Of a stretch of DNA of 64,000 nt, positions 1,871-59,451 are shown piece by piece. The translations under genes and the position numbers were made by a program. The first letter of the stretch is position 1; each line of letters opens with the position of its first letter. Source of the DNA: a virus. Location of the stretch: the IMG/VR virus record IMGVR_UViG_3300010244_000098; one strand, given 5' to 3'. Under the pieces are notes generated by a model, which was given only the letters and a program-made list of their open reading frames with translations, was not told the origin of the DNA and did not search any database.

Positions 1871-3265
1871 ATGGAAAGACATTTAACATTTGAAGAATTA
1901 GACTTAGTTATCCGAGGAGACATTGCGATTAATGACCCTATTGCTTTGTTCTCACGACCAGGAATTGGAAAAACTGAACACTTGAAAGCACTGAGTGAAC
2001 AGTTAGGGGGAAAAGTATTTACGCTTGCTGTCAACCAAATAGGCGACAAAGAAGATTTGACAGGGGTTCGCCCTGTACAAAAGACAAACAGTCAAGGAGA
2101 GACCTATAGTCAACAAGAGGCCTTCCCTCACGCAACATTAATGGAGGCTATACAATACGCCAAAGACAATCCTGATGATCCGGCTATCATATTCTTAGAT
2201 GAATTCAACCGTACAGACCAAGACGTAATATCCGCTGCATTATCCTTTACAACAGAACGAAAAATAGGAACTGTCGAGTTTCCGGATAACGTTCGCTTTG
2301 TTCTAGCTGGAAATAAAAACGGCAACGTGGTTCCTTTCGACGATGCCACGGCAACACGTTTCTCCATCTACAACATCAATCCAGATTTAGTTACGTACTT
2401 GAAACATAATGCAGACATCAATGCCTTCGTCAAAGACTTATTGTTGAGTGACCCGGGACACCTTGTCGGCGAACCAGGCCAAAAAGCTTCTCAAAATACA
2501 AAGAACAACCCTTATCTTCAAGATCAGGACACGGCTATGGACGAAGGAGACGACGCATTCGACCCGTTTGGCGACGAGTCTACTATCACAGAAGAACGAA
2601 CAGTTCCTCGTACATTGACAAAAATAAGCAACTGGTTGAATCATATCGGTGTTGACCAGAGCGGTTCCGAGAAAGAAAAAGATGCCCTGGCGTCTTTCCT
2701 TCAACCTATTGAAGCCGAGCAGCATAATGATGAACCAACAACGCTTCTTCAAACAACCATCGAATCGAAATTGGGCCAGACACCAACGGCTACAGCCTTA
2801 ATCACTGAGTTGATCCAATATCATGAAGACTTGCTTCAACAATCTATGGCAACGGTTCAATCACCCGGAGGATCTATGTCTCAAGAACTCAGTGATATCT
2901 TAGACGTTATTCGACTGGACGACGCACACAAAGACGCTCTAGACGATATTCATTCACGAAGCGACATGGTGGATTACTTTGAGAGCACGGTAGATAACGA
3001 AGAAGCCAATACGATCTTGCTATGGTCTCTGACCAACGAAGCGTATCAAACATTAGACGGAGATATTTCTCCTGTGAACTTAATCGAAAACATTGTTCCT
3101 CAAATGAACGGTATGTCTAAACGTGGTATGCGCTTATTCAATCAATTAATGGGTTATCCAGATATCATTGTTAAACGCTCTATCGAAGTATTGAAAGATG
3201 TTACACCGGACAGCAACAGAGAGTTATCCGCATTAGTTGGATTTGCGCAATCTATGATGAATTAA
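1871..3265 (+). CDS. MoxR-like AAA+ ATPase (AAA_5 type)
   Basis: Walker A SRPGIGKT, Walker B IIFLDEFNR, VLAGN sensor, ATRF arginine finger. Start moved to ATG 1871 because of the AAGAAAGGA RBS; the track start at 1496 is probably spurious. Confidence 0.85.
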   Translation: MERHLTFEELDLVIRGDIAINDPIALFSRPGIGKTEHLKALSEQLGGKVFTLAVNQIGDKEDLTGVRPVQKTNSQGETYSQQEAFPHATLMEAIQYAKDNPDDPAIIFLDEFNRTDQDVISAALSFTTERKIGTVEFPDNVRFVLAGNKNGNVVPFDDATATRFSIYNINPDLVTYLKHNADINAFVKDLLLSDPGHLVGEPGQKASQNTKNNPYLQDQDTAMDEGDDAFDPFGDESTITEERTVPRTLTKISNWLNHIGVDQSGSEKEKDALASFLQPIEAEQHNDEPTTLLQTTIESKLGQTPTATALITELIQYHEDLLQQSMATVQSPGGSMSQELSDILDVIRLDDAHKDALDDIHSRSDMVDYFESTVDNEEANTILLWSLTNEAYQTLDGDISPVNLIENIVPQMNGMSKRGMRLFNQLMGYPDIIVKRSIEVLKDVTPDSNRELSALVGFAQSMMN

Positions 3266-3287
3266 TCAAACGTATTATGAAAGGAGA

Positions 3288-5051
3288 ATGCCCGTGGGGT
3301 TCCAATTACTCAATCAGCAAGCACAGACGTTTTATTCAACGGACCCTAACCTTCCGTTGATTGATCCTTCTGTAGATAATCAAGGATACGACAACCAGCT
3401 TAAAGCCCACGCTTTTGAAACCCTTGTCCGCCCTCTTTATACCCAGAAACGACAAGGAACTGATGTGGTCATTCAGGACGATAATACAAATTCGCCTGTA
3501 GACGCCCAGACATTTACAGAAGCGTTCGTTCATTATTTAAAAACAGACGTTATCGATCAAGAATTAACCCAGGAGTTTCGGTCTATTTACGACGAAGGAA
3601 GTCAGCATGATTTATCCAACACATTATCATTCGACCAATTTTTACTGTCGGAATCGTTATCCGACGAAGGACTTCCCTACCCGGAATCGGGACGGGTTAT
3701 TTATACCCCGGGCGAAGTCAAAGAGTCCGCGAAAGACCTGTATGACGTTATGGATCAAATCAATCAGCAGTCCCTTCCTTCAAAACATCAAGCATGGTTT
3801 AGCCGATTAGGTGCTTATATTTCGCAATACAAGCTGTCTAATTTTCGTCTGGTTACCATGAAAGACGATAAGGCCTTTGATGATTTAAAACGACGCATGA
3901 CGGCTTATATGAAGCACAGCAACCAACTGCCGGCGAACACAGTGAGTCATTTGACCCAATTCAATCAATTATCACTGGAAGACGAGTTGAGTATTGGCAT
4001 GTTTCTCCCTGATGAACTCAATCATGACCCGAACGGGTTTAATCGGTTATTGGAATATGAACTGGCGCAAATGGAGAGGCAAAAGAACCCGTTGGTTTTC
4101 AACGAAATGTACAGTCTAAAAGGTCTTTTCCAGCCGACAAAAATACTGTTATTGAACCTGAGTGAATACACGAACGCTACAGATCTACACGGAGAATGGA
4201 AGTCTATTGTCCAGGCGTTTAACAAAGCACATCGACTGCGACACATCAAAAACAATAAGCTCCAGACTGTACGATCCGTCAGTCGTGAAAACACAGTAAC
4301 ACCTACGTACGACGGTGGTAATCGCATGTTGGACCAAAGCGCCCTGCGTTCTGACAATGTCTCTTATCTGACAAAGAAACCGATAAGCACCAAAGAGCTC
4401 ATCCGACGCGTTCGAACTATTATGAAAAAACAAGTTTTGAATCAACCGACGAGCAATGTCACTAAGCAAAAACGAAAAACGTTCATGCGTGCCAATCGAC
4501 GAAAACCTTTCGATTTAACGGCACGGGGAAAAGGCAAACGTAAACAGTATTATCCTGATTTGCATATTTGGCTGGATACGTCCGGGTCTATTTCTCAGGA
4601 CGATTATCAAAACCAGCTTTATGTCATGATCGGCATTGCGAAGAAACTGAATGTGGATATTTACATGAATAGTTTCTCCCACATTGTTTCAGAGACAACC
4701 CATATTCGAACAAAACACCAATCCGCAAAGAATATATTCAAAGCAATCGAAAACATCGATAAAGTCGCCGGCGGTACCGACTTCATTAACGTATGGAAAG
4801 CGATTGACCAAACCGAAAAAGCCAACGTTAAACGAAACGAAGCCCGTCGCACTCACTTGATCCTCAGCGATATGGATTACCATATCCCCCATTCATATAC
4901 ACTGCAGATGAACCGACCGAGTGTGAAGAATACTTATTATATCCCTATTCGTATTCAGACAACGCGCAGTCGAAGTTACATTGATCATTTTGCAGAATCT
5001 CTGCGTGAACGCGGAGGGCCCGCGACTCCTTTAAAACATATTCTTTACTGA
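3288..5051 (+). CDS. VWA-domain protein (DUF2201/VWA-like), probable partner of the MoxR ATPase
   Basis: MIDAS motif LHIWLDTSGSIS, GGTDF and ILSDMD, preceded by a basic RANRRKP segment; directly downstream of the MoxR gene. Confidence 0.8.
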   Translation: MPVGFQLLNQQAQTFYSTDPNLPLIDPSVDNQGYDNQLKAHAFETLVRPLYTQKRQGTDVVIQDDNTNSPVDAQTFTEAFVHYLKTDVIDQELTQEFRSIYDEGSQHDLSNTLSFDQFLLSESLSDEGLPYPESGRVIYTPGEVKESAKDLYDVMDQINQQSLPSKHQAWFSRLGAYISQYKLSNFRLVTMKDDKAFDDLKRRMTAYMKHSNQLPANTVSHLTQFNQLSLEDELSIGMFLPDELNHDPNGFNRLLEYELAQMERQKNPLVFNEMYSLKGLFQPTKILLLNLSEYTNATDLHGEWKSIVQAFNKAHRLRHIKNNKLQTVRSVSRENTVTPTYDGGNRMLDQSALRSDNVSYLTKKPISTKELIRRVRTIMKKQVLNQPTSNVTKQKRKTFMRANRRKPFDLTARGKGKRKQYYPDLHIWLDTSGSISQDDYQNQLYVMIGIAKKLNVDIYMNSFSHIVSETTHIRTKHQSAKNIFKAIENIDKVAGGTDFINVWKAIDQTEKANVKRNEARRTHLILSDMDYHIPHSYTLQMNRPSVKNTYYIPIRIQTTRSRSYIDHFAESLRERGGPATPLKHILY

Positions 5052-5077: not shown

Positions 5078-7063
5078 ATGAAAATCGAAAATTTTAAAAA
5101 CGATGACCCAAACGATGATTCAACAAACAATCCCAATGGACCATCAAACAATCAAGGGAACGGCCCACCTCCTATAAATGGCGGGCACGGTGTTTCTGCA
5201 AACATCATACCTCCTCCTGATGACCCACAGGACGACGAACGTCCTGAGGCTCTCATTAACTACAATGAAAAAGCGGATACGTTCGACAAGGCTTTGTTCC
5301 GCGATGAAGAAATCGACCGTATGATCACGATCTTATCTTCGAAAAAGAAAGCGAATGCCCTTCTTGTCGGTGACGCCGGCGTTGGAAAAACTCAAATTGT
5401 TGAGGAATTTGCCCGACGATACGAAATCGACCAGGACCCTGTTCTCATTGAACGTTTCGGAGATGACCTTCAGATTGAAGAACTTCGTATCTCCAGTTTA
5501 ATATCCGGAAAATCCGTCGTTGGTCAATTGGAGCAGGAAGTTGAAAAGGTGCTTAATTATACGAAAGAAACAAACAGTATTGTTTTTATCGACGAACTGC
5601 ACCGATTATTCTCTCCGGGACCGGCGCAAAATATCAGTCAAGACCTGAAACAGGCGCTGGGTCGTGGCGACGTTCAATTTATCGGCGCAACCACAACCCA
5701 GGAAGTTGAGGCCATACGGGAGGAATCGGCCTTTAATCGTCGTTGGAGCGATGTCATCGTTGATGAGTTAACACCGGAGCAGACCGAAACGATTCTTCGT
5801 CACGCTAAAAGCGGTTATGAAAAATACCATAATGTTCGCTATCCGGACCATCTTTTATCAACGATTGTCCGTTACGGTGATCTATACAAACGCTCCGGTT
5901 CACACAGACCGGATTCCGGACTGACACTCATGGACCGTGTTGGTGCTTCTGTAGGACTGGAAGGCATACAGCGCCGTCAATCCGACGACCCTGTTGTTCA
6001 ACAGTTCGTTCAAACGAACCCGGTACCCCGCGTATCTGAACAAGCCGTTAAAAAGATAGCGAAGTCGCTTGTTCAAAAGCCGGGTGCTGTGGAATCAACC
6101 GAATCGATAGAGGACATGTTGCAGAACACCATCATCGGACAAAAGGAAACAAAAACGAAAGTCACCGAAACAATCAAACGTATCAAATTAGGACTGTTAG
6201 ATCCTAAACGCCCTCACAGTTTCTTATTTGCCGGCCCCAGCGGTACAGGAAAAACAGAAACAGCCAAACAATTAGCGAACTATATGTACGGGGATAAGCG
6301 TGCAATGATTCGACTGGATATGAGTGAATTCTCTGAAAAAGCAAGCATTAACCGAATCAAGGGCTCTCCAGACGGCTACGTGGGGTCAACAAGCAAACAA
6401 CCTCTGCCTTTTGACAGTCTTGTCTCCAATCCACATCAGATTATTCTGCTTGATGAGATTGAAAAGGCTCATCCGGACGTTCGATTATTATTTATGCAGA
6501 TTTTAGACGAAGGGTTCTTCACGACAGAGCGACACGTTACTGTTGATTTTACGAAATCTATTATTATTGCAACAACAAACTCCGGCGTTGAAGAATTAAA
6601 CACAACGTCTATCGGTTTCAATCAGCCGGCACGAAAATCCAGTAAAGACATTCTTACAGCCTTAAAACAAGATTTTCCTGTGGAACTGTTGAACCGGTTC
6701 GAACATATCGTAGCCTTCCAAGGACTTAATATTGACGAATACAAACAGATTCTTGCTATCAAATACAATCAATTAATCACTGAAGCCAATAACAATCGTC
6801 CCGATTTAACCTTTAAACCTGCGTTCATTGATCCTTATGACGATGACGCCTTAGCTATGCTCAACCAGATTGCCGAAGACAGTTTCGATCCAAACTTAAA
6901 TGGTCGTCCCGCTGAGAGAACTATTCAGCGTCATATGGAAAACCACGTATTAGAACATATGAACGACACGAAACAAATCTTATTTGAGGATCCAAAACAA
7001 CAATACTCTGTCCAGCAATCTGCTCTACCTTCGCAACAAAACCAGTTAACCGACAATCAGTAA
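5078..7063 (+). CDS. Clp/Hsp100 ATPase no. 1: two AAA+ modules, no Clp-N or M domain, with an IGF loop
   Basis: GDAGVGKT, IVFIDELH, GATT; GPSGTGKT, RLDMSEF, GSPDGYVG, LLDEIEKAHPDV; SIGF after the second sensor-1. Confidence 0.88.
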   Translation: MKIENFKNDDPNDDSTNNPNGPSNNQGNGPPPINGGHGVSANIIPPPDDPQDDERPEALINYNEKADTFDKALFRDEEIDRMITILSSKKKANALLVGDAGVGKTQIVEEFARRYEIDQDPVLIERFGDDLQIEELRISSLISGKSVVGQLEQEVEKVLNYTKETNSIVFIDELHRLFSPGPAQNISQDLKQALGRGDVQFIGATTTQEVEAIREESAFNRRWSDVIVDELTPEQTETILRHAKSGYEKYHNVRYPDHLLSTIVRYGDLYKRSGSHRPDSGLTLMDRVGASVGLEGIQRRQSDDPVVQQFVQTNPVPRVSEQAVKKIAKSLVQKPGAVESTESIEDMLQNTIIGQKETKTKVTETIKRIKLGLLDPKRPHSFLFAGPSGTGKTETAKQLANYMYGDKRAMIRLDMSEFSEKASINRIKGSPDGYVGSTSKQPLPFDSLVSNPHQIILLDEIEKAHPDVRLLFMQILDEGFFTTERHVTVDFTKSIIIATTNSGVEELNTTSIGFNQPARKSSKDILTALKQDFPVELLNRFEHIVAFQGLNIDEYKQILAIKYNQLITEANNNRPDLTFKPAFIDPYDDDALAMLNQIAEDSFDPNLNGRPAERTIQRHMENHVLEHMNDTKQILFEDPKQQYSVQQSALPSQQNQLTDNQ

Positions 7064-7150: not shown

Positions 7151-10100
7151 ATGCCAATTACAATCAACGCTCAAAACCCATTAAACGATATTGAAAAAGT
7201 AAGTAAAGAATTCACTTCAATCGCGTCTCATTCACCAAAATTCTTTTCGAATAAACTAACAGGGAACGGAAAATCAAGAGGACTTATAAGCAAAGAAGTC
7301 AACCGATTAGGCGATCAACTGCAGAGTCACGGACGCGCTTTGCAAGAGGATTCTTGGCTCACCGCACGTCGTTTGGACGACTTAATTGAAGACACCTTAT
7401 ACCTGAATACGTACAGTGCTTCGTTAAGCAATAACGACGAACCTTATGCGAACGGCTTCACCAAAAACAGCCTAAAAGAGACTATCAACGATTCCACAGA
7501 TGTCTATGAAATCAAAGACGTTATTGATTTAGAAACAATCAATCCGTTGTTATTAAACGACCTTCATTTAGATATGGTCTACCCATTAGATACGGTGCTG
7601 TGGGATTTAAATAACGTTGAAGAATGGACAGAGATTGCCCGGGAAAACAATAAAGTATTACGGGCAAAACTTCTATTCAGTCATATGTCTCTTTTGGAAA
7701 AAGAAACTTCTTTGGCAAAAGGCAGTAAGACAAAGAAAACTCGGTTTGTTCTTACGCCCTTTTTACTAACAAGCGTAGCCAATACAGATACAGTCCAAGA
7801 CCGTCTAACAATCAATGCCGATATAAACGTCGCCGATGCTCACCGGGTTCGAATTACACCGATCCGTATCAATGAACAAACAGATTCAAACGGTCGTCTC
7901 GTTCTTGAATATGACTACGGCGTTCCTCAAAACTCAATGTACTTGGATAATTTTGCAAAGAAAGCCATTGAAGATTTAACAACCGATTCTACGATTCGAT
8001 ATCGTTCCGAGTTGAAAGAGTATGTGCGAAACGTTTCCGTTTATGAAACCTTGTGTGAACAAGCCGAGCGATACCAAGAACACTCTATGGACCAATTTGT
8101 CCGTATCATTGAGGAGTTAAGCGTGCAGGCAACAGCCGGACGCTCTCGTGACAGCCAGCTTGCCAGCTACTACAGTCTGGTGAACAAACTGGAGGATATT
8201 GAAAAACAAGGCGGGAAAATCAAAACAGACGAACTTGACGCCGTCTATAGCGCTATCGTTCACGATCCTGTCTTGAATGAGAAAGATAAGGACAATGTAC
8301 TGAAACAATCCCTGCGATTATTGCTAGCACACCGCTTAAGTACACTGGCAGATGCTAAAGACAACGGAAAACTTTATAACTTCCAGCCTTTAGACGATCA
8401 AATCAAGGATAATGTGAAACAAAGTTCGATGTACTCAAAACAACAAAAAGATATCATTCTGACTGAAGAACCGTTAAGCATTGGTCAGGCAGGAGCCGGT
8501 TCAGGGAAATCTCATACCGTTACCGGACGTATACACTACCTTCAAGCTCAGCAGGAAGATCTGAACCAAGTTCTTGTGTTGAGTTTTACCAACGTTGCTG
8601 CACAAAATATCTCTAACCGCTTCCCCGGCATTAAAAGTAAAACTTTAGCAGACATGTTCCACTCTATATATAAAGATTCATTCCCTCTGCAACACCTTTC
8701 TACACCAGGAACGTTGATTAACAGTCTGCGTTTGTTGAACCCTCATTCGGCGTATTTTACGTCACTAAAAGGACACAATGGAGACGATGTTGAGACAGCG
8801 ATTCGCGAACTGGGTAAAATAATGAAAAACGTAGCCTCTCGTTTCGGGAAAAACAATGATGTTCAAAGCAATATGCGTCGATTGATGAACCTTATCGGCG
8901 AGAAACCAGACATCATCCTGTCTATTCTTGACGCTATAGAGCAGACAACACTGGAAATTGAACCCATCATCATTCACCACTTCTTAAATAATGACCCAAG
9001 TCAATTAGCTATTCCACAAGAGTTTCAAGACTTGAATATGATTATCACGGACGAAAGCCAGGACATATCTACCTTTGAATACATCATGTTGATCGATATG
9101 GCTTTATACTACGGTTGTCAATTATTGATTGTTGGTGACGGAAGTCAAACATTGTATGAATTCCGTAACTCAGATCCTCGTTATCTAAACGCCTTAGAGT
9201 CCTCCGGTGTGTTTGCCACATATAAATTAGAAACCAATTACCGTTCAAGCGGAGAAATTCTAACAATGGCCAACCAATTCCTACAGGTGATCGAGGCCAA
9301 CGATGTAGCGAATATCCAGTTACGTCCGAACAGTTTCAGAACACCGACTCTCGAATCCTTTAAAGATAGTGTCACTGTGTACAGTGCCCTTCCTTCTTCT
9401 CCAGAACGGAAAAATCGTCGCGATATACTGGAAGACCATTTACTAGGGAACGATGAGTTTATGGATTGGTTTTATGACAAAATCGATAATGATGAACAGG
9501 TCGCTTTCTTAGCTCATACAAGAAAAGACGTCGCTGTTGCTGAAGAAGCGTTGAACACTCTGCTTCAAAGACATGGACGCACGGATGAGGTCACAAATAT
9601 CGTATCCAAACGTGTTTACGAAAAACGCTATATTTCCGACGTACTGCTTTCTGTTCGTGCAGACTTTGTTCAAATTAATCCAAAAGCTTCCAATTTCTTC
9701 GATCAAGTGACTCAGTTATTTGACGAAAACAATTCTCAAGTTCGTTCATGCTTCTATGGGAAAATCACGGATAAACAATTAGCATGGAACGTTCAAGATA
9801 TCAGGGACACTTTTGCTATGGTGGCTACACAGCCCCATATTAAGGCTATGCGTAAAGAAGTCGCATTAGGACAGCGTCAAGGTCCTGATGTTATGCACGC
9901 TATATTGCAGGATATGCTTCGAGAAGAAACACGTCAAAACAATATGAAACACGTTTTGGAATCCAAAGAAGAAATCGACTTAACCGGCAAAGCAGTCGTT
10001 GTATCAACAATCCACGCTGCAAAAGGGTTAGAGTTTGACCACACAATTGTTGTACACCACCAAAGAGAACACGTATCCAACGTGGATACCGATAAAGCTC

Positions 10101-10288
10101 AGGAACAATTTCGTATGCAGTTTGTTGCTCTAAGTCGAGCGAAGAAAACGGAATGGATTATCAATACACAGCTTGAACCTTCTGTGTCTGTTTCCGACCA
10201 GCCTTCTGCAATGTACAAAACGCCGATGACAACGGCATTCTTGCGTGCGTCAGAACAAGCCCGTAAAGCCAACGCCGTCGGTGTGTAA
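7151..10288 (+). CDS. UvrD/PcrA-like superfamily 1 helicase with a ~400-aa unassigned N-terminal region
   Basis: QAGAGSGKS, LVLSFTNVAA, ITDESQD, VGDGSQTLYEFR, LETNYRS, STIHAAKGLEFD, VALSRAK. Confidence 0.9.
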   Translation: MPITINAQNPLNDIEKVSKEFTSIASHSPKFFSNKLTGNGKSRGLISKEVNRLGDQLQSHGRALQEDSWLTARRLDDLIEDTLYLNTYSASLSNNDEPYANGFTKNSLKETINDSTDVYEIKDVIDLETINPLLLNDLHLDMVYPLDTVLWDLNNVEEWTEIARENNKVLRAKLLFSHMSLLEKETSLAKGSKTKKTRFVLTPFLLTSVANTDTVQDRLTINADINVADAHRVRITPIRINEQTDSNGRLVLEYDYGVPQNSMYLDNFAKKAIEDLTTDSTIRYRSELKEYVRNVSVYETLCEQAERYQEHSMDQFVRIIEELSVQATAGRSRDSQLASYYSLVNKLEDIEKQGGKIKTDELDAVYSAIVHDPVLNEKDKDNVLKQSLRLLLAHRLSTLADAKDNGKLYNFQPLDDQIKDNVKQSSMYSKQQKDIILTEEPLSIGQAGAGSGKSHTVTGRIHYLQAQQEDLNQVLVLSFTNVAAQNISNRFPGIKSKTLADMFHSIYKDSFPLQHLSTPGTLINSLRLLNPHSAYFTSLKGHNGDDVETAIRELGKIMKNVASRFGKNNDVQSNMRRLMNLIGEKPDIILSILDAIEQTTLEIEPIIIHHFLNNDPSQLAIPQEFQDLNMIITDESQDISTFEYIMLIDMALYYGCQLLIVGDGSQTLYEFRNSDPRYLNALESSGVFATYKLETNYRSSGEILTMANQFLQVIEANDVANIQLRPNSFRTPTLESFKDSVTVYSALPSSPERKNRRDILEDHLLGNDEFMDWFYDKIDNDEQVAFLAHTRKDVAVAEEALNTLLQRHGRTDEVTNIVSKRVYEKRYISDVLLSVRADFVQINPKASNFFDQVTQLFDENNSQVRSCFYGKITDKQLAWNVQDIRDTFAMVATQPHIKAMRKEVALGQRQGPDVMHAILQDMLREETRQNNMKHVLESKEEIDLTGKAVVVSTIHAAKGLEFDHTIVVHHQREHVSNVDTDKAQEQFRMQFVALSRAKKTEWIINTQLEPSVSVSDQPSAMYKTPMTTAFLRASEQARKANAVGV

Positions 10289-11243: not shown

Positions 11244-11296
11244 TCCCCTTCTGATAAACTATAGAATGAATAACTACGATGAAAAGGAAGATTGCT

Positions 11297-50308: not shown

Positions 50309-53062
50309 CTAATCCCCGAGTTCTTGTTCTGCACCCGGGTCATTGTAGCTCATTTCATAATACGTTGAACTATATCTCGGAAGCAAGTCCCTCTCGCGCT
50401 CTTTAAAGAGTTGACGAACATACGCTCTGTCCCGTTCTCCTTCGGTTATCTTCACTTCCGGTTCAGGCACGGCACGGATCAGACGGGCTTCCCGGGCGCG
50501 CTGGAGTTCTTCGTTTTCTTCTTCCTCCTCCAACTCTTGTTGTCGAAGGATTTCGTATTGACGATTTAATCGGATCAATTCGTCTGTTAAATTAAATGGT
50601 TCGTCTAAGTCGTGCTCTCTCGTCCATTCTACTGTTTCCTCTTTTTCACGTTCCACAATCGGAGGGGATATCTCCAAAAACTCCCGGTTCATGTCGACAG
50701 CGTCGTCGTGAGCAAGCGTATATGAAGCGTGTTCTTTTATGTAATCATCCTCGTGACGACGCAGGGGTCTGGGCAGTTCTCCGCCTTCTTCAGCAACAGC
50801 GATAAAATCCAAAGCTTCACTGACCCCGTTGGCTTCATTTTGAAAATAAGTGTACTCCGGATAGTCTTCGGTATTCTGCCCGGACCGGTCCAGATAAGAT
50901 AAGGCATTTCGAAAAGCTTTCTGCCTCGATTCGTGCATGGATCGATTCGCCTCTAAAACTCGAGGCGATACCCGTCTTGACTGATCCCGGTCTAAATCAT
51001 AAATTGTCCGGGCAATATCGTACCCTTTCACTTCGTTGAAGCGTTCTTTATCAACAGCAGGAGTTTCTTTCTGCTCCCGAATCTGCATTTGGGATTCCAA
51101 TCCGTCGTAAACACGACTCATCGCCCGAACTTTTCCGTCGTACTTCACTAGTTGATCTAACGACTTGTCTCCAACGCCTTCACTCTCCAATCGTTCTATA
51201 ACCGGAGCGGACAGCCGTTCAGAGACCGACAGATCTCGATTGGTTGCATAGGTCTTAGGCTCCCGCGGAATGGCTCTGACACTGTGTTTCACACGGTTAT
51301 GCACCCGGTCTACCCATTCTTCTTTGTCTAATCCGTCCCCCGTAGGATATTTCTCACGGCGGTAATGAAGATACGGTTTCGGTTGTTGATCCATTAAGTA
51401 TTGATATTTATCCCGGACTCCGCCGTGATAGGTTGATTCCGTATCGTATAAATCCCGCATAGCTCCGGATTCTTTAACAACCTCGCCTTTATCAGCCAAC
51501 ATGTCATAATCATCACGGAGGGACGTATAGTAATCCGTTTTCTCTTTTGCTTCTTTCCACCGTTTGGGATAATCCCGAATACGTTTTTCCATTTGAAGCA
51601 AACCGTTGGACTCTGACTTTTCCTGACCTAAATCGTCGGCGATGTGTTCTTTTAGAGATTCATCATCCAAAAGGGCCAGCTGTAAGCCTTTTGGCGTCAA
51701 CGATCCTTGTACAACCCGTCGCTCCCGGTTGTCCATAGATGATTCCTGCTCTTTTTCAAAAGCCTTTTTATCCCCTACAACACGTAAGGGTTTCATCGAT
51801 GTATACAGTCCGTTGACCAATTCTTCTTTCAAACGATCGTTAACAACGTCTCGAAGACGGTCTCGTTCTTTTTCGTAGCTTTCTGACTCCGTGTCCGGAG
51901 CTTTTGTTTCAACATAGGTATCCACGGCTTCTTCAAACGAATCATACCCCACGACATTTCGGTGCGTATCGAGCATGTGGTCAACGTATTGACCGGATAA
52001 GCGGTTCGCTTCTTTCATATCTTGACGGTTGCTTTTAAACCGCCAGTTCTTTTGCTGACTCCGCAGATCTTTGTCATACGCCGCTCCGTCGTATTCGGGA
52101 TTTTTCTCTCCTTTAGGCAGAGCATCATAGATCCGGACCAACTGCTGGCTGAGAGCCGTATGTTCAAGAAACAACTGCGTACTGTTCTGTTTCACCAGCT
52201 GATGGTGGGCGGATAAATTATTCGTGAACGGTTTAGCCCCTTTTGTTCGTGTCAATTCCTGGTCCACCCCGTCTTTGAACGACCGCATAACGCGCTGATG
52301 TAGTTTCCCGCGCTCTCCCTGGTGTTCGTGGTTGGAAGGAGTATCTTCAACAAGGAATAAATCATTATATGTATGTGCCGGGTTCTTTTTTGACTTGTAC
52401 GGTTGTTTCTTAGACCCACGCACCATGCGTTCCTCAGGGACATTGTTCATGTCCGTGGTTTCAATCAGCGTTAAATGGACGTGAACGTTAGCCGTATCCA
52501 CCTGGATTGCTGCCGTCCATTCCGGTTCTACGAAATGAGCCTTTTCGGTCATTCGTTCCATGCCTTTTGTAACTGCACGGCGCAGTTTCAATTGGTCCAC
52601 TTGGCCATGATACTTTCCTTCGTCCTGGTTATTTTCTACGTCGTCCATATCTTCAGGAACAACCTTTTTGCGTTTTAAATAATCATGCGAAAAACTGACC
52701 ACCGGCGTTATCAATGTATGCCCGTCTTCCAGAGCCCGTTCTGTTTTTTGTACAGAATCCGTAAACTGGTCCCGAGTGTACACCAATCCTTGACTGCCAA
52801 ACAGCCGTGCCGATTGATCGGTTACTTTCTGGTCTTCATGGTATAAGGTTTGTTCGTCGCCCAATTCCTCAATCACTTGTTCCGATTGGGCATTCCGTTG
52901 GTCATATGCTTCTTCATACGCCCGTAACGTCTGTTGGGGCGTGTAAGGCGCTAATTCTTCCGTGGCGTCCAACCTGGATGTGTATCGGCGTATGTAGTTT
53001 CCCGGTGTTCCTCCGGCTTTCGCTCCGAACTGACTGACCATCACGATATCGCTGCTCGCCAT
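50309..53062 (-). CDS. Conjugative relaxase, MobL/MobP2-like
   Basis: N-terminal TPGNYIRRYTSRLDATE (candidate catalytic Tyr), TPVVSFSHDYL, and HUH motif WTAAIQVDTANVHVHLTL; long helical C-terminal region. Confidence 0.8.
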   Translation of the reverse strand: MASSDIVMVSQFGAKAGGTPGNYIRRYTSRLDATEELAPYTPQQTLRAYEEAYDQRNAQSEQVIEELGDEQTLYHEDQKVTDQSARLFGSQGLVYTRDQFTDSVQKTERALEDGHTLITPVVSFSHDYLKRKKVVPEDMDDVENNQDEGKYHGQVDQLKLRRAVTKGMERMTEKAHFVEPEWTAAIQVDTANVHVHLTLIETTDMNNVPEERMVRGSKKQPYKSKKNPAHTYNDLFLVEDTPSNHEHQGERGKLHQRVMRSFKDGVDQELTRTKGAKPFTNNLSAHHQLVKQNSTQLFLEHTALSQQLVRIYDALPKGEKNPEYDGAAYDKDLRSQQKNWRFKSNRQDMKEANRLSGQYVDHMLDTHRNVVGYDSFEEAVDTYVETKAPDTESESYEKERDRLRDVVNDRLKEELVNGLYTSMKPLRVVGDKKAFEKEQESSMDNRERRVVQGSLTPKGLQLALLDDESLKEHIADDLGQEKSESNGLLQMEKRIRDYPKRWKEAKEKTDYYTSLRDDYDMLADKGEVVKESGAMRDLYDTESTYHGGVRDKYQYLMDQQPKPYLHYRREKYPTGDGLDKEEWVDRVHNRVKHSVRAIPREPKTYATNRDLSVSERLSAPVIERLESEGVGDKSLDQLVKYDGKVRAMSRVYDGLESQMQIREQKETPAVDKERFNEVKGYDIARTIYDLDRDQSRRVSPRVLEANRSMHESRQKAFRNALSYLDRSGQNTEDYPEYTYFQNEANGVSEALDFIAVAEEGGELPRPLRRHEDDYIKEHASYTLAHDDAVDMNREFLEISPPIVEREKEETVEWTREHDLDEPFNLTDELIRLNRQYEILRQQELEEEEENEELQRAREARLIRAVPEPEVKITEGERDRAYVRQLFKERERDLLPRYSSTYYEMSYNDPGAEQELGD

Positions 53063-56780: not shown

Positions 56781-56812
56781 AAAAAGACAAGCCGCAAAGG
56801 GCTTGTCTTTTT
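56781..56812. terminator. Bidirectional intrinsic terminator
   Basis: Perfect 13-bp AAAAAGACAAGCC-gcaaag-GGCTTGTCTTTTT between convergent genes. Confidence 0.88.
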
Positions 56813-59451
56813 TATTTGGCCTCAGCCGTTTTCGCTTGGAATCGAACCCGGCCGTCCGAACCGATATCCATCACGACAGGGTGTCCTTGAACGACGTCGC
56901 CTGACAGAACCGCCTTGGAGAACGGAACCTCAATTTGTTGTTGGATAAACCGGTTGAATGGCCGTGCCCCGTAACGGGGGTCATAGGCTTGTTGGGCAAT
57001 CCATTGAACAAGTTGTTTCGTATACTGAATGCGGTACCTTTGTTGAGCCATTCGTTCAACAAAGCGGTGCAATTGTTTATTAACGATCATACCCGATACG
57101 TTAGCGCCCAGTGGATTAAAGAGCAACTGCTCATCGATCCGGTTAAGAAACTCCGGTCGGAAATGACCTTCCACAATAGTTCGGACGTGGTTCCGTGTTG
57201 AATCGGCATATCCTCGGCCGTTCAACGCCTGTTGATCCTGCATCATCTGCGGAGAACCCAAGTTGCTGGTCAAAATAACCAATGTCTGCGTAAAATCAAC
57301 AATGTTACCCTTTCCGTCCGTCACTCGACCATCGTCAAGGAGTTGGAGCAAGGAGTCAAAAATGGCCGTGTGCGCTTTTTCAACCTCGTCGAACAAAATG
57401 ACGCTGTAAGGTTGTTGACGCACGGCTTCAGTCAATTGCCCGCCCTGATCGTAACCGACATAGCCGGGTGGTGCTCCGATCAACCGGTTCACACTGTGTT
57501 TTTCCATATATTCTGACATGTCAATTCGAATCATTGCGTCTTCTGTATCAAACAACTGACTGGCCAAAGCCTTTGCCAATTCTGTTTTTCCTGTCCCTGA
57601 AGGGCCGAGGAATAAAAAAGAACCAAGAGGCCGGTCATCGCTTTGGACGCCCACACGGCTTCGAATCACAGTGTTGGACACCGCTTCAACGGCTTCTTCC
57701 TGACCAATCACCCGTTGTTTGAGCACTTTATCCATATCCAACAATTTTGATTTGTCGTCGGCCATCAGTTTATTCAGCGGAATGCCGGTTTTTGAAGCAA
57801 TCACGCTGGCCACTTCTTCTTCACCCACGCTTTCAGACATTAACGCCTTTCCGCCGGTCTGCTGATCAAACGACGTTGTCATCTGGTCTAACCGACGTTC
57901 TAATTCAGGAATAATCTCCGACTGCAGATTAGCCACTTTATCTTTATCATAGGCTTCTTTCGCCGACGTCAATCGTTTCCGGGCAACAAGCAGTTTATCC
58001 CTGACGTCACTGATTGATTTGAGAGCCTGCTTTTCTTTCTTCCAGCGCTCATTTAATTGTCGTCCTTCGGCTTTAGCCTTGTCGAGTTTTTGAGCGACTT
58101 CCTGTGCCTGCTCCCGGCTCACCGGGTCTGTTTCGTTTTTCAAGGCGTCCAGACGCACACCGAGTTGGAGCACCGTGTTCTTTAACTCATTCAACGGTTC
58201 GGGAACCGAATCCTTTTGGACATTCACTTCCGAACAGGCTTGGTCGATCATGTCGATCGCCTTATCCGGCAAATACCGGTCTCCGATGTATCGGTCGGAC
58301 AGTTCAACCGCTGACACTAACGCTCTATCATGAATACGTACGTGGTGAAACTCCTCAAATCCATCTTTTAAACCACGCAGTATGTGTGTTGCGTCTTCTA
58401 AACTCGGTTCAGCCACACGAACAGGTTGAAACCGTCGGGCCAACGCCGTGTCCGGTTCGATGTATTTTTTGTATTCGTCGTTTGTTGTGGCCCCGATAAT
58501 GGCGACCTCACCCCGTGCCAGTTCCGGTTTTAACGCATTACTGACATCACCCGAGCCGCTCGCTCCGGCTCCGACAATAGTGTGGACTTCATCAATCAAT
58601 AGAACAATTTGTCCATTGCCTGATTTCACTTCTTTAACGATGTTCTGCAGGCGCTTTTGAAGGTCCCCCTGATACTTCGCCCCGGACAGCAAACTTTGCA
58701 TATCTAAAGAAATAATCTGCTTGCCTAACAATTTATCGGGCACCTGTCCTTTGACGATTCGTTGAGCCAGTCCTTCAGCAAGCGCCGTTTTTCCGACCCC
58801 GGCCTCTCCAACAAGAACAGGATTGTTCTTCGTTCGCTGGCTCAAGGTGTTCACCATGAGGCCGATTTCTCTATCCCGGCCGATAATTGGGTCCATTCGT
58901 CCCCGTTTCGCCTCCGCCGTCAAGTTCTTCCCGAATTGTTTCAAATAAGGAAATACCCGCTCGGCTTCACTTTGTATCGTCCCCCCGCTTGCACGGATTT
59001 GACGCAATTTCTGCTCCGCCTGCTGATAATCGGCGTACTGTCTCAGCCACTGGGCCGACGCATTGTTCTTCGCACCAAACAATGTAACCAACACCACTTC
59101 ACTGGACAAATAAGAATCTCCGTAGTGACCTGCTAAACGGGCTGATTCCTCCAGTAAAGCAGACATCTCTTTGCTTACTTTGCTTTTCGATGTTCCTTTT
59201 TTCTTTTTGAGTTTTTGAAGAAACGACGGTTCTTTCTTGTCCCCATTATCGGTCCCTTCTGCCTTCACATAGGCTTTGAGTTCATTCAAAGGAACATTCA
59301 AACTCGCCAGGAATTGAGCTCCTAACGACCCCTGTTGAAGCATACCCCACAGGAGATGATGCACGTCGACGGGGAGGTCGCCTCGTTGAACAGCCCATTT
59401 GTGACCGCTCTTAATGGCCCCTTTCAAAGCGCTTGTTGTTTGGATCCCCAT
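56812..59451 (-). CDS. clpB: ClpB-type disaggregase (Clp/Hsp100 ATPase no. 3)
   Basis: Clp-N repeats; MDPIIGRD, KNNPVLVGEAGVGKT, GAKYQG, IDEVH, ALARRFQ, YLPDKAID; M-domain coiled coil; LGPSGTGKT, IGAPPGYVGY, LFDEVEKAH, FRPEFLNRID, YGARP. Confidence 0.93.
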   Translation of the reverse strand: MGIQTTSALKGAIKSGHKWAVQRGDLPVDVHHLLWGMLQQGSLGAQFLASLNVPLNELKAYVKAEGTDNGDKKEPSFLQKLKKKKGTSKSKVSKEMSALLEESARLAGHYGDSYLSSEVVLVTLFGAKNNASAQWLRQYADYQQAEQKLRQIRASGGTIQSEAERVFPYLKQFGKNLTAEAKRGRMDPIIGRDREIGLMVNTLSQRTKNNPVLVGEAGVGKTALAEGLAQRIVKGQVPDKLLGKQIISLDMQSLLSGAKYQGDLQKRLQNIVKEVKSGNGQIVLLIDEVHTIVGAGASGSGDVSNALKPELARGEVAIIGATTNDEYKKYIEPDTALARRFQPVRVAEPSLEDATHILRGLKDGFEEFHHVRIHDRALVSAVELSDRYIGDRYLPDKAIDMIDQACSEVNVQKDSVPEPLNELKNTVLQLGVRLDALKNETDPVSREQAQEVAQKLDKAKAEGRQLNERWKKEKQALKSISDVRDKLLVARKRLTSAKEAYDKDKVANLQSEIIPELERRLDQMTTSFDQQTGGKALMSESVGEEEVASVIASKTGIPLNKLMADDKSKLLDMDKVLKQRVIGQEEAVEAVSNTVIRSRVGVQSDDRPLGSFLFLGPSGTGKTELAKALASQLFDTEDAMIRIDMSEYMEKHSVNRLIGAPPGYVGYDQGGQLTEAVRQQPYSVILFDEVEKAHTAIFDSLLQLLDDGRVTDGKGNIVDFTQTLVILTSNLGSPQMMQDQQALNGRGYADSTRNHVRTIVEGHFRPEFLNRIDEQLLFNPLGANVSGMIVNKQLHRFVERMAQQRYRIQYTKQLVQWIAQQAYDPRYGARPFNRFIQQQIEVPFSKAVLSGDVVQGHPVVMDIGSDGRVRFQAKTAEAK

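What the first reader, a model, noticed from the sequence alone, without database searches (positions are those of the whole stretch)
1871..59451. Whole system: RNAP, atypical T4SS, three Clp ATPases and a MoxR/VWA/helicase module, possibly a distinct class of self-transcribing mobile element
Seen: one element combines a private RNAP, a relaxase and T4SS-like genes, a MoxR-VWA-Clp-UvrD operon, a second Clp inside the transfer region, a canonical ClpB and a Tmk-alphaCTD fusion. No phage structural genes are in the window. From memory and unverified: the Corynebacterium glutamicum CGP3 'prophage' that encodes NCgl1702 also has neighbouring MoxR-like, Clp-like and SF1 helicase genes. Inference: these genes form a conserved cross-phylum core of RNAP-encoding conjugative elements, in which AAA+ machines assemble, deliver or recycle the RNAP or transfer apparatus.
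Basis: partly seen in the sequence, partly recalled or inferred. Interest (0 to 1): 0.85.

Follow-up and report, generated by a model that had tools for sequence, protein, structure and literature searches.

The report
Conjugative element with private RNA polymerase
This stretch belongs to a large DNA-transfer (conjugative) element that carries its own giant RNA polymerase and a fixed set of ATP-driven protein machines, and the same genes recur in the same order in distant Gram-positive bacteria, which points to a type of bacterial mating system that standard tools do not recognise.

Summary
The window encodes a 2100-aa single-chain beta/beta' RNA polymerase (RNAP), a MobL relaxase, a split VirB4-like protein without a P-loop, a MoxR-VWA-Clp-UvrD operon, a second Clp in the transfer operon, a canonical ClpB and a Tmk-alphaCTD fusion. 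I found no phage genes in the window or in 10 kb on either side.

The co-occurrence claim is strongly supported. In 12 extended actinobacterial loci with both flanks covered, MoxR, VWA, Clp1, UvrD, RNAP, Clp2 and MobL keep the window's order and orientation. A Clp2 ortholog lies next to the RNAP in 20 of 23 RNAP-bearing genomes, against 1 of 200 sampled genomes (p = 2e-24). Plasmids of Gordonia (pGKT2, reported to transfer between genera), Rhodococcus, Staphylococcus and Lactococcus carry the set or most of it.

Three traits hold across the family. The VirB4-like protein has no Walker A (0 of 110 full-length relatives). Clp2 lacks its D2 pore loop but keeps four ATP motifs. Clp1 keeps a ClpP-docking [IVT]GF loop.

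ClpB and Tmk-alphaCTD are not core. No coupling protein was found in the window. "Self-transcribing" is unproven, and all gene functions are inferred.

This scan had already linked NCgl1702 to conjugation clusters on other DNA (e1-2842701).

The parts
685..1440 (-). LysM + Hydrolase_2 cell-wall hydrolase. Candidate peptidoglycan-opening enzyme of the transfer apparatus.
   Evidence: Pfam LysM 2.5e-13 and Hydrolase_2 5e-9. LysM or lysozyme genes sit in the transfer operons of pGKT2, pGS01 and Microbacterium. The role is inferred.
1871..3265 (+). MoxR-type AAA+ ATPase, first gene of the MoxR-VWA-Clp1-UvrD operon.
   Evidence: Pfam AAA_5 1.8e-9. Walker A GIGKT. Orthologs at 30-35% identity in the same position in 12 actinobacterial loci, the Bifidobacteriaceae MAG, pGKT2, pGS01 and a Lachnospiraceae MAG.
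3288..5051 (+). VWA protein with a MIDAS motif, partner of MoxR.
   Evidence: Pfam VWA 2e-4, just below the cut-off. DTSGS at residue 430. Orthologs E 1e-39 to 1e-47 beside MoxR in all extended loci.
5078..7063 (+). Clp1: ClpC/ClpA-like double AAA+ unfoldase without an N-domain. It has a D2 GYVG pore loop and an IGF-type ClpP-docking loop.
   Evidence: Pfam AAA_2 3.6e-48. Both Walker A/B pairs, GY[VI]G (GYAG in one ortholog) and the [IVT]GF loop are conserved in all 10 Clp1 sequences aligned (window plus nine orthologs). Orthologs E 1e-100 to 1e-124.
7151..10288 (+). UvrD/PcrA-like SF1 helicase (1045 aa), last gene of the operon.
   Evidence: Pfam UvrD-helicase 3e-16 and UvrD_C 2e-12. Orthologs E 1e-68 to 1e-85 directly after Clp1 in all extended loci.
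11279..12211 (+). Thymidylate kinase fused to an RNAP alpha C-terminal domain. Lineage-specific, not core.
   Evidence: Pfam Thymidylate_kin 1.2e-30 and RNA_pol_A_CTD 1.5e-7. No homolog in any related locus.
13217..14488 (+). MgsA/RarA AAA+ replication-associated protein. Recurrent accessory gene.
   Evidence: Pfam MgsA_C 1.6e-51. Homologs E 1e-79 to 1e-86 lie 12-15 kb before MoxR in Arthrobacter castelli, Streptomyces and Brevibacterium, and on pGKT2.
17004..17654 (+). Signal peptidase I (S26), kept in the window's own clade.
   Evidence: Pfam Peptidase_S26 2.4e-36. Same position in relative L102.
20084..22042 (-). Type IA DNA topoisomerase.
   Evidence: Pfam Topoisom_bac 1.8e-34 and Toprim. 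Staphylococcus plasmid homolog 5e-119, downstream of its RNAP. Weaker TopoIA-like genes lie beside the split VirB4 in Leifsonia, Microbacterium, Parvibacter and the Lachnospiraceae MAG.
26578..26619 (-). Shared box TTGTGAAAAA-N23-TGnTAnACT, just after a terminator and upstream of the operon that follows the RNAP gene.
   Evidence: Conserved at the same place in the 80%-identical relative L002.
26662..32964 (-). 2100-aa single-chain beta-then-beta' RNA polymerase of the NCgl1702-like kind.
   Evidence: Pfam. Invariant catalytic residues. The profile matches bacterial beta' and beta in the PDB, E 4e-10 to 1e-7. The core model (pLDDT 72) matches the largest subunits of cellular RNAPs. Homologs in 26 genome loci and 13 plasmids, none in 50,697 phage records.
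32999..33040 (-). Second copy of the shared box, upstream of the RNAP gene.
   Evidence: The decamer alone also lies upstream of the VirB3-like gene, at 48739-48748.
33087..34979 (-). VirB4 C-terminal (ATPase-fold) domain protein without a P-loop: a pseudo-ATPase.
   Evidence: Model plus Foldseek: VirB4 4AG6, E 6e-9, TM 0.66 by target. No Walker A in the window or any homolog. 0 of 110 full-length family representatives carry GxxGxGK[ST].
34997..35305 (-). Ribbon-helix-helix protein, a candidate regulator or relaxosome accessory.
   Evidence: Pfam RHH_1 1.5e-4. Kept in L002, L102 and L103.
35631..37778 (-). 715-aa protein of unknown function, conserved in the window's clade.
   Evidence: No family hit. 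Synteny kept in L002, L102 and L103. Weak profile match to the 727-aa Staphylococcus plasmid protein (probability 31%).
37912..43014 (-). 1700-aa multi-pass membrane protein, a VirB6/TrbL-like lead, with 75-aa tandem repeats.
   Evidence: Five predicted TM segments. Atlas nearest clusters include TrbL, TrbL_3 and CD3337/EF1877 mobilome membrane proteins (a lead only). 225-nt repeats at 38650-39223.
43087..44979 (-). Clp2: double AAA+ Clp/Hsp100-like ATPase of the transfer operon, without its D2 pore loop.
   Evidence: Pfam AAA_2 5e-41. All four Walker motifs are intact, and a 12-residue deletion removes GYVG in every ortholog, including the Staphylococcus and Lactococcus ones. It lies next to the RNAP in 20 of 23 genomes.
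45004..45873 (-). VirB4 N-terminal-domain-like membrane protein, the other half of the split VirB4.
   Evidence: NCBIfam VirB4_plasma positions 19-275, E 3.8e-6. Its homolog directly precedes the VirB4 C-domain gene in Staphylococcus, Leifsonia, Lumbricidophila, Microbacterium, Parvibacter and the Lachnospiraceae MAG.
48249..48617 (-). Small protein with two TM segments, VirB3/PrgI-like by size and topology.
   Evidence: TM prediction. Weak homologs in the transfer regions of the Staphylococcus plasmid, Arthrobacter castelli, Psychromicrobium and Lumbricidophila.
50309..53062 (-). MobL-family relaxase (917 aa).
   Evidence: Pfam MobL 7.3e-24. Homologs upstream of Clp2 in all extended loci. Annotated mobL in pGKT2 and the Staphylococcus plasmid.
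56812..59451 (-). Canonical ClpB with N- and M-domains. Cargo, not part of the conserved core.
   Evidence: Pfam Clp_N, AAA_lid_9 and ClpB_D2-small. No ClpB-type gene lies in the related loci; the only hits there are cross-hits to Clp1 and Clp2.

Best explanation
The window is the central part of a large conjugative element (plasmid or integrated element). Its contig is 148-222 kb. The host is an uncultured bacterium, probably Bacillota, from a plant-associated metagenome.

The element belongs to a family of Gram-positive conjugation systems spanning two phyla that current typing tools do not recognise as complete. The family has a fixed gene set:
- a MobL relaxase;
- a split VirB4-like scaffold that lost its P-loop long ago;
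- a double-ring Clp/Hsp100-like ATPase (Clp2) with intact ATP sites but no D2 pore loop;
- a giant single-chain beta/beta' RNA polymerase placed at the end of the transfer operon;
- a type IA topoisomerase in the Staphylococcus plasmid and, as weaker TopoIA-like genes, in five other related loci.

Actinomycetota, the window's clade and a Lachnospiraceae MAG add a MoxR-VWA(MIDAS)-ClpC-like-UvrD operon, oppositely oriented where it lies on the RNAP's contig, and some members add RarA.

What is shown: the gene identities, the conserved order, the family-wide motif losses, and the reported transfer of one member (pGKT2).

What is inferred, with my odds:
1. MobL nicks the DNA and the UvrD-like helicase unwinds it (0.5).
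2. Clp2 supplies ATP-driven work to a channel whose VirB4 can no longer bind ATP (0.4).
3. The RNAP is not a channel part. It makes RNA on the element's own DNA, most likely early transcripts or primers on the incoming strand in the recipient, in place of a conjugative primase (0.35). Alternatively it acts as a host-independent transcriptase of the transfer and establishment operons in the donor (0.3).
4. Clp1 docks on host ClpP, with MoxR-VWA as loader or adaptor, and removes or remodels proteins bound to the transferred or transcribed DNA (0.25).
For: Anatomy.

Synteny:
- In 12 extended actinobacterial loci with both flanks covered, the order and orientation are MoxR, VWA, Clp1, UvrD, then on the opposite strand RNAP, coupling protein, a 710-aa protein, Clp2 and MobL. 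In one of them (Arthrobacter sp. Hiyo8) several of these genes are broken.
- A Bifidobacteriaceae MAG has the four-gene operon convergent on the RNAP.

Specificity:
- The best genome-wide Clp2 match is the RNAP-adjacent gene in 17 of 23 genomes. A Clp2-type gene lies on the same contig near the RNAP in 20 of 23.
- Among 200 other sampled genomes of the class, the RNAP occurs in 0 and a Clp2-type gene in 1. Fisher p = 2.3e-24.

Block inheritance: pairwise identities of the seven core proteins correlate at r = 0.76-0.97.

Plasmid members:
- pGKT2 and pGS01 carry MobL, Clp2, the coupling protein, RNAP, Clp1 and MoxR.
- The Staphylococcus plasmid carries MobL, Clp2, split VirB4, RNAP and Topo IA. 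Lactococcus pJM4A carries Clp2, the VirB4 C-domain protein and the RNAP.
- pGKT2 was transferred from Gordonia to Gordonia, Rhodococcus and Nocardia (Jung et al. 2011, as cited in PMC5640721).
- None of the four complete plasmids has a canonical VirB4 (PF12846).

Family-wide motif states.

A natural variant (G150) keeps split VirB4, Clp2 and the coupling protein but lacks exactly the RNAP gene. It also has no Clp1 ortholog. So the RNAP is not a channel part, and it may co-vary with the Clp1 module.

Not a phage.
Against: - No function has been tested for any of these genes.
- The window and its close relatives show no VirD4-type coupling protein. This copy may depend on a gene elsewhere on the contig, use an unrecognisable one, or be defective.
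- Clp2 lacks the pore loops expected of a threading motor, so a role as motor is speculative.
- The Staphylococcus and Lactococcus plasmids lack the MoxR module, so the RNAP does not need it.
- G150 shows that the transfer genes can persist without the RNAP.
- The shared box ends in an extended -10-like element, which suits host sigma-A RNAP with an activator as well as a private promoter.
- No RNA data hold the locus.
- The host phylum rests only on weak leads.
- The correlation of identities partly reflects shared host ancestry.
Confidence: 0.8

Rival explanations
1. The element is a prophage or phage-plasmid, and the RNAP is a phage transcription enzyme like YonO of SPbeta or the jumbo-phage RNAPs.
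For: The related fused RNAP NCgl1702 lies in a region called prophage CGP3, and older literature treats such enzymes as phage-derived (PMC2919709). Many small unknown genes flank the window.
Against: - tblastn of the RNAP against 50,697 phage records finds nothing.
- No capsid, portal, terminase or tail family appears by Pfam or PHROGs in the window, or among the called flank genes.
- The RNAP sits inside relaxase/VirB4/coupling-protein operons on circular plasmids.
Confidence: 0.03
2. The AAA+/helicase operon (MoxR-VWA-Clp1-UvrD) is an anti-phage or anti-plasmid defence or counter-defence cassette that rides on these elements. It is not part of transfer or of RNAP function.
For: - It is transcribed on the opposite strand from the transfer operon.
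- It is absent from the Staphylococcus and Lactococcus plasmids, which still have the RNAP and Clp2.
- Clp- and UvrD-like proteins occur in defence systems: generic PADLOC hits to DolB and GajB.
- MoxR-VWA pairs occur in conflict systems.
Against: - MoxR and VWA match no PADLOC model, and the Clp and UvrD hits are at domain level only.
- The operon keeps its place and orientation, and its proteins diverge in step with RNAP and MobL (r 0.80-0.97). This is unlike swappable defence cargo.
- In the one RNAP-less relative the Clp1 ortholog is missing too.
Confidence: 0.15
3. This copy is a decaying, non-self-transmissible relic, or at best mobilisable. The P-loop-less VirB4 and the missing coupling protein are signs of decay, not of an alternative mechanism.
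For: No coupling protein was found in the window or in the 10-kb flanks. MOB-suite labels related plasmids non-mobilizable or mobilizable. In Arthrobacter sp. Hiyo8 several core genes are broken.
Against: - All large ORFs in the window are intact. Synteny and sequence are kept in relatives whose RNAPs are 55-80% identical, from other samples.
- Loss of the P-loop is shared by all 110 full-length family members, while the fold and many invariant residues are kept. That means old, selected change, not recent decay.
- pGKT2, which has the same VirB4-like and Clp2 genes and no canonical VirB4, is reported to transfer.
Confidence: 0.15
4. The RNAP is a replication or repair enzyme of large plasmids (a primase for vegetative replication, or a lesion-bypass transcriptase) and has no specific role in mating.
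For: The neighbourhood holds RarA, topoisomerase, SSB (in pGKT2 and pGS01), an HD-OB protein and Tmk. The RNAP can be lost while the transfer genes persist.
Against: The RNAP gene is always the next gene after the coupling protein or the VirB4 C-domain gene, in the same orientation. In the loci covered, the replication initiator, where annotated, lies elsewhere.
Confidence: 0.12

Closest known systems
NCgl1702-like fused beta/beta' RNAPs of mobile elements (C. glutamicum NCgl1702; Iyer, Koonin and Aravind 2003; PMC2919709; PMC7824862)
   Same: One polypeptide of about 1800-2200 aa. The beta-type barrel with two lysines precedes the beta'-type barrel with DxDxD. Outside the catalytic core it is very divergent. 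It is found on mobile DNA of Gram-positive bacteria.
   Different: Only about 25% identity to the actinobacterial 1850-aa proteins, over the core alone. I could not align it with NCgl1702 itself. The literature I could read treats NCgl1702 as an orphan of unknown role or of phage origin, and describes neither the conjugative context nor the conserved partners.
Gram-positive conjugative type IV secretion systems with MobL relaxases (pLS20 family, PMC8557374; FATA-type mating-pair systems, PMC3158045)
   Same: MobL relaxase, VirB4-fold protein, VirB6-like membrane protein, cell-wall hydrolase, topoisomerase, RHH accessory proteins. Actinobacterial and Staphylococcus members also have a VirD4/TraG-type coupling protein with a TRxGKG-type P-loop.
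   Different: VirB4 is split and lacks Walker A throughout the family. A Clp/Hsp100-like double AAA+ gene and a giant RNAP are fixed genes of the transfer region. No canonical VirB4 (PF12846) is present on four complete plasmids, and typing tools call these plasmids non-conjugative.
Gordonia sp. KTR9 plasmid pGKT2 (182 kb, xplAB RDX-degradation plasmid)
   Same: It carries MobL, Clp2, the 866-aa protein, the coupling protein, RNAP, RarA, Clp1 and MoxR. It is the only member with reported intergeneric transfer.
   Different: Actinobacterial and high in GC. Proteins are 25-40% identical to the window's. It has a recognisable coupling protein, which the window lacks.
Transferred conjugative primases (Sog of R64, TraC1 of RP4) and injected or early phage RNAPs (N4 vRNAP; YonO of SPbeta, PMC5467207)
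   Same: A nucleic-acid polymerase encoded by the mobile element, which makes the first RNA on newly arrived DNA independently of the host (PMC5512222). This is the role I propose for the RNAP.
   Different: Unrelated folds (Toprim, T7-like) or a much smaller two-barrel enzyme (YonO, about 100 kDa). No evidence yet that this RNAP is transferred or acts on single strands.
MoxR-VWA chaperone pairs and ClpC/ClpA-ClpP unfoldase-protease systems
   Same: An AAA_5 MoxR gene directly followed by a MIDAS-VWA gene. Clp1 has two AAA+ rings, a GYVG pore loop and an [IVT]GF loop at the ClpP-docking position.
   Different: The three are fused into one operon with an SF1 helicase and tied to a conjugative RNAP element. 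Clp1 has no N-domain and no aromatic D1 pore loop. No clpP gene lies in the window.

Membership tests
NCgl1702-like single-chain beta/beta' RNAP | Beta-type barrel (two catalytic lysines) N-terminal to the beta'-type barrel (DxDxD) in one polypeptide | tested here: met
   Pfam Rpb2_6 at 898-975 and Rpb1_2 at 1371-1443. K909, K917, D1425, D1427 and D1429 are invariant. PDB profile hits to beta and beta'.
NCgl1702-like single-chain beta/beta' RNAP | Detectable homology to NCgl1702 itself | not testable with these tools
   No C. glutamicum sequence could be fetched. Homology to the 1850-aa actinobacterial proteins is clear (E 1e-30 to 1e-40). An earlier scan report (e1-2842701) puts NCgl1702 in conjugation clusters.
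NCgl1702-like single-chain beta/beta' RNAP | No flap (SBHM) insert in the beta barrel | tested here: inconclusive
   Only 18 residues separate D890 from K909, which fits with no flap. I did not check this on the model.
Conjugative type IV secretion system | Relaxase | tested here: met
   MobL, E 7.3e-24, score 84.9 against cut-off 28.5.
Conjugative type IV secretion system | VirB4 ATPase with Walker A and B motifs | tested here: not met
   The VirB4 fold is present, and so is an N-domain gene. Walker A is absent in the window and in 110 of 110 full-length relatives, and Walker B is replaced by hhhh[HY]G[AT][ED].
Conjugative type IV secretion system | VirD4/TraG-type coupling protein | tested here: not met
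   None in the window, the flanks, or close relatives L002, L102 and L103, by HMM and profile-profile search. It is present in actinobacterial, Staphylococcus and Lachnospiraceae members.
Conjugative type IV secretion system | Demonstrated cell-to-cell transfer | not testable with these tools
   Known only for the family member pGKT2, from the literature.
Clp/Hsp100 class I unfoldases | Two AAA+ modules with Walker A/B and aromatic pore loops | tested here: inconclusive
   Clp1: Walker motifs and D2 GYVG are met, but the D1 loop has no aromatic residue. Clp2: Walker motifs are met, the D2 pore loop is deleted and D1 is degenerate. Clp1 fits the family. Clp2 fits only as a divergent offshoot.
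MoxR-VWA chaperone pair | AAA_5 ATPase adjacent to a VWA protein with MIDAS DxSxS | tested here: met
   AAA_5 1.8e-9. VWA 2e-4, just below the Pfam cut-off, but with DTSGS at residue 430. The genes are 22 nt apart.
Prophage | Capsid, portal, terminase or tail genes | tested here: not met
   No such Pfam or PHROGs family in the window or among the called flank genes. No phage record holds an RNAP homolog.

The most novel reading that the evidence does not exclude
These elements are an unrecognised class of mating-pair formation system. In it the universal VirB4 motor became a pseudo-ATPase scaffold long ago, and a pore-loop-less Clp/Hsp100 double ring took over the ATP-driven work. A private cellular-type RNA polymerase, served by a ClpP-docking unfoldase, a MoxR-VWA loader and a UvrD helicase, carries out an RNA-synthesis step in the donor or in the recipient. 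That step might be priming or host-independent early transcription of the transferred strand. No studied conjugation system has such a step.
Probability: 0.3. Interest if true: 0.9.

Novelty: new variant of a known kind. Interest (0 to 1): 0.78.

Why it matters
VirB4 is treated as the one universal ATPase of conjugative type IV secretion, and it is the marker used to detect conjugative elements. This family lacks a functional VirB4 signature, so MOB-suite calls its plasmids non-mobilizable or merely mobilizable, yet one member is reported to move between genera. Gene flow in Actinomycetota and Bacillota may therefore be underestimated. That includes 55-65 kb staphylococcal plasmids of unknown function.

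The finding also gives the 20-year-old orphan RNAP family typified by NCgl1702 a concrete biological setting. It comes with testable partners (Clp2, Clp1-ClpP, MoxR-VWA, UvrD) and a tractable, non-pathogenic model in pGKT2. If the RNAP acts on transferred DNA, it would be a new solution to the establishment problem of incoming single strands.

Tried and rejected
- Direct comparison with CGP3/NCgl1702 could not be done. No whole genome is held for the window, my one genome-contig scan returned no Corynebacterium, and paper searches for NCgl1702 and cg1995 gave no gene tables. A guessed PMC id for Iyer and Aravind 2012 was not held.
- Search for a coupling protein in the window: an HMM built from ten actinobacterial coupling proteins (nine chromosomal loci plus pGKT2) found nothing in six frames of the window, both flanks and L002. 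hhalign of the 1700-aa and 715-aa proteins against coupling-protein, 710-aa and 727-aa profiles was negative, even with four-sequence profiles.
- A sequence profile of the VirB4-like protein found nothing in the PDB. Only the fold search worked.
- The Atlas gave nothing usable for the 715-aa protein.
- PADLOC gave only generic domain hits, so the operon is not a catalogued defence system.
- PHROGs found no structural genes.
- No RNA-seq run holds the locus, so expression and transcript starts could not be examined.
- Element ends and integration sites were not found. There are no tRNAs in the window, and tRNA scans of the extended loci were uninformative.
- Circularity of the 148- and 222-kb contigs could not be tested, because of limits on how much of a metagenome record can be fetched.
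- The 21-bp box is not a general element-wide promoter. It has only two full copies, and the relative L002 keeps only the TTGTGAAAAA and TGnTAnACT parts.

Full report
**1. Observation**

On the + strand:
- MoxR-type AAA_5 ATPase (1871-3265).
- VWA protein (3288-5051), with MIDAS DTSGS at residue 430.
- A two-module Clp ATPase without an N-domain (Clp1, 5078-7063).
- A 1045-aa UvrD-like helicase (7151-10288).
- Thymidylate kinase fused to an RNAP alpha C-terminal domain (11279-12211).
- RarA/MgsA, an OB-HD protein and a signal peptidase I.

On the - strand:
- Type IA topoisomerase.
- A 2100-aa protein with an Rpb2_6 match at residues 898-975, followed by an Rpb1_2 match at 1371-1443.
- Three large proteins with no Pfam family, and an RHH protein.
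- A second Clp ATPase (Clp2, 43087-44979).
- A MobL relaxase (50309-53062).
- A canonical ClpB (56812-59451).

There are no tRNAs. GC content is 0.39-0.48.

The RNAP's catalytic residues (GDK..H.NKG with K909 and K917; DFDGD 1425-1429) are invariant across ten relatives. Its profile matches bacterial beta' and beta among solved structures. A model of the core (pLDDT 72) matches the largest subunits of cellular RNAPs, not small phage enzymes.

**2. Source and flanks**

The window lies on a 148,555-bp JGI metagenome contig, and the RNAP also occurs on a 222-kb contig. The one sequencing run that holds it is labelled plant metagenome.
- Ten kb to the left: small unknown genes and a Cas9.
- Ten kb to the right: an endonuclease, RecJ, TraX and a large PXO2_28/LRR surface protein.
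- No phage structural family appears by Pfam or PHROGs.
- tblastn of the RNAP against 50,697 phage records finds nothing, while 13 plasmids match.

The prophage alternative is therefore very unlikely. Weak leads point to a Bacillota host.

**3. The transfer genes**

*The VirB4-like protein.*
- The 630-aa protein just upstream of the RNAP folds like the VirB4 ATPase domain. The model is only moderate (pLDDT 56, better in the C-terminal half), but the Foldseek top hits are VirB4 of T. pseudethanolicus (E 6e-9, TM 0.66 by target) and TrwK.
- The 289-aa membrane protein at 45004-45873 weakly matches the N-terminal part of a VirB4 model. In Staphylococcus, Leifsonia, Lumbricidophila, Microbacterium, Parvibacter and a Lachnospiraceae MAG, its homolog directly precedes the 630-aa homolog. 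VirB4 is therefore split.
- Neither the window's protein nor any homolog has a Walker A motif, and Walker B reads hhhh[HY]G[AT][ED].
- An exhaustive profile search of 1.84 billion representative proteins finds 372 clusters (138 at E <= 1e-30). None of the 110 full-length members carries GxxGxGK[ST].
- The loss is therefore old and maintained, not decay.

*Other parts.*
- The 1700-aa protein has five predicted TM segments and resembles TrbL/VirB6-type mobilome membrane proteins. This is a lead only.
- I found no VirD4-type coupling protein in the window, its flanks or its close relatives.

**4. Conservation test (the core of the finding)**

Close RNAP relatives (37-80% identity) exist only in metagenomes. 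Three of them keep the window's local gene order.

Distant RNAP homologs (about 25% identity over the catalytic core) were found in 26 loci of species-representative genomes, mostly Actinomycetota.

I extended 15 of these loci to 33-100 kb and searched them with the window's proteins.
- In 12 loci with both flanks covered, the order and orientation are the window's: MoxR, VWA, Clp1 and UvrD on one strand, then RNAP, a 1350-aa protein, a 710-aa protein, Clp2 and MobL on the other. In Arthrobacter sp. Hiyo8 several of these genes are broken. The remaining loci were cut by contig ends.
- The 1350-aa protein is a VirD4/TraG coupling protein (Pfam T4SS-DNA_transf, TraG-D_C; TRxGKG P-loop).
- A Bifidobacteriaceae MAG has the four-gene operon convergent on the RNAP.
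- Whole-genome searches show that the best Clp2 match of a genome is the RNAP-adjacent gene in 17 of 23 genomes. A Clp2-type gene lies on the RNAP contig in 20 of 23.
- In 200 other genomes sampled evenly from the same class, the RNAP occurs in none and a Clp2-type gene in one. Fisher p = 2.3e-24.
- Pairwise identities of the seven core proteins across 11 loci correlate at r = 0.76-0.97. This fits inheritance as one block, although shared host ancestry contributes.

**5. Plasmids and Bacillota**
- Gordonia pGKT2 and Rhodococcus fascians pGS01 are circular plasmids carrying MobL, Clp2, coupling protein and RNAP. They also hold Clp1 and MoxR elsewhere on the record.
- pGKT2 was transferred in the laboratory from Gordonia to Gordonia, Rhodococcus and Nocardia (Jung et al. 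2011, as cited in PMC5640721).
- A complete 55.5-kb S. aureus plasmid carries MobL, a Clp2 ortholog, a coupling-protein homolog, the split VirB4, a 1787-aa RNAP and Topo IA. It has no MoxR or Clp1.
- Lactococcus pJM4A has the RNAP, the VirB4 C-domain protein and a Clp2 ortholog.
- A Lachnospiraceae MAG has the split VirB4, MobL, Clp2 and coupling-protein block on one contig. The MoxR-VWA-Clp1-UvrD operon is on another and the RNAP on a third.
- None of the four complete plasmids has a canonical VirB4 domain (PF12846). MOB-suite types them non-mobilizable or mobilizable.
- Staphylococcal plasmids of this type (SAP020A, pAYP1020) are not among the three recognised staphylococcal conjugative families (PMC4993578, PMC4585213).

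**6. Motif states that bear on mechanism**
- Clp2 keeps both Walker A and both Walker B motifs. It has a 12-residue deletion that removes the D2 GYVG pore loop, and a degenerate D1 loop. This holds in every ortholog, including the Staphylococcus and Lactococcus ones.
- Clp1 keeps GY[VI]G (GYAG in one ortholog) and, at the ClpP-docking position, a conserved [IVT]GF loop that ClpB lacks.
- The four-gene operon matches no catalogued defence system beyond generic domains.

**7. A natural experiment**

Genome G150 carries a related element with the split VirB4, Clp2, the 710-aa protein and the coupling protein.
- The gene that normally follows the RNAP sits directly after the coupling protein, so the RNAP gene is precisely absent.
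- No Clp1 ortholog is found in that genome.
- This suggests the RNAP is not a structural part of the channel, and it hints that RNAP and the Clp1 module go together.
- It is a single case, and the Staphylococcus plasmids (RNAP without Clp1) argue against strict dependence.

**8. Promoter question**
- A 42-nt bipartite element, TTGTGAAAAA-N23-TGnTAnACT, follows a terminator upstream of both the RNAP gene and the next operon. The relative L002 keeps its two conserved parts at both places.
- The decamer also lies upstream of the VirB3-like gene.
- There is no canonical -35 at the normal spacing. The downstream part looks like an extended -10 element.
- The data cannot distinguish a host sigma-A promoter with an activator from a private promoter. 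"Self-transcribing" therefore remains a hypothesis.

**9. Interpretation**

Shown:
- This is a conjugative-type element, not a prophage.
- Its RNAP, Clp2, P-loop-less split VirB4 and MobL form a core found in two phyla.
- The MoxR-VWA-Clp1-UvrD operon is a conserved extension in Actinomycetota and the window's clade, and it also occurs in a Lachnospiraceae MAG that has the other core genes, though on a separate contig.
- ClpB and Tmk-alphaCTD are lineage-specific.

Inferred:
- Clp2 supplies the ATP-driven work that the VirB4 scaffold can no longer supply.
- UvrD unwinds from the MobL nick.
- The RNAP makes RNA on the element's DNA, either primers or early transcripts on the incoming strand, or host-independent transcription of the transfer genes.
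- Clp1 with host ClpP and MoxR-VWA remodels or removes DNA-bound proteins.

**10. Comparison with what is known**

[quoted passage not shown] In the papers I could search I found no description of the conserved partners, of the pseudo-VirB4, or of a Clp ATPase as a fixed transfer gene.

This scan had already linked NCgl1702 to conjugation clusters (e1-2842701) and had found another two-barrel RNAP inside an acidobacterial transfer locus (e1-5257488). The RNAP-conjugation link as such is therefore not new to the scan. The defined multi-gene core and its motif states are what this report adds.

Noticed in passing
L052:17160-20405 (about 6-9 kb left of window position 1): A 1081-aa Cas9 (HNH_4, RuvC_III, WED, PI domains) lies on the same contig, just outside the element's MoxR end and separated from it by about 14 small unknown genes.
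   Followed up: no
window:38650-39223: Three tandem 225-nt (75-aa) repeats, 72-92% identical, inside the 1700-aa VirB6-like membrane protein. This suggests a variable surface-exposed region.
   Followed up: no
G150:C11:1-32757 (L097, L098): A related actinobacterial element keeps split VirB4, Clp2, the 710-aa protein and the coupling protein, but the RNAP gene is precisely missing between the coupling protein and its usual downstream neighbour. No Clp1 ortholog was found in that genome, and the MobL-type relaxase was not detected either.
   Followed up: partly
G022:C72:7163-19004 (L104): In a Lachnospiraceae MAG the coupling-protein gene appears as at least six separate ORF pieces, each matching the actinobacterial protein at E 1e-36 to 1e-100, spread over 12 kb. 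Possible causes are inteins, introns, repeated copies or misassembly.
   Followed up: no
NZ_CP150776.1 (L049, L100); also SAP020A, pAYP1020: Staphylococcal plasmids of 55-65 kb, typed non-mobilizable and mostly 'hypothetical', carry MobL, Clp2, a coupling-protein homolog, split VirB4, RNAP, Topo IA and a lysozyme. They are not among the three recognised staphylococcal conjugative plasmid families.
   Followed up: partly
ArthE G003, Strep G009, Lumbri G011, Parvi G014, Lachnospiraceae C72: In several elements the Clp2 ORF is 940-1410 aa instead of about 600 aa. It carries a long extra region of unknown nature fused to the double AAA+ core.
   Followed up: no
window:60686-62512 and L054:1-3957: A 608-aa NADAR-domain protein, and further right TraX and a surface protein of more than 1164 aa with PXO2_28_C and LRR_5 domains. 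These suggest the element continues beyond the window with surface or adhesion functions.
   Followed up: no
window:48739-48748: A third intergenic copy of TTGTGAAAAA lies upstream of the VirB3-like gene that opens the transfer operon. This suggests a small regulon with the RNAP gene and the operon after it.
   Followed up: partly
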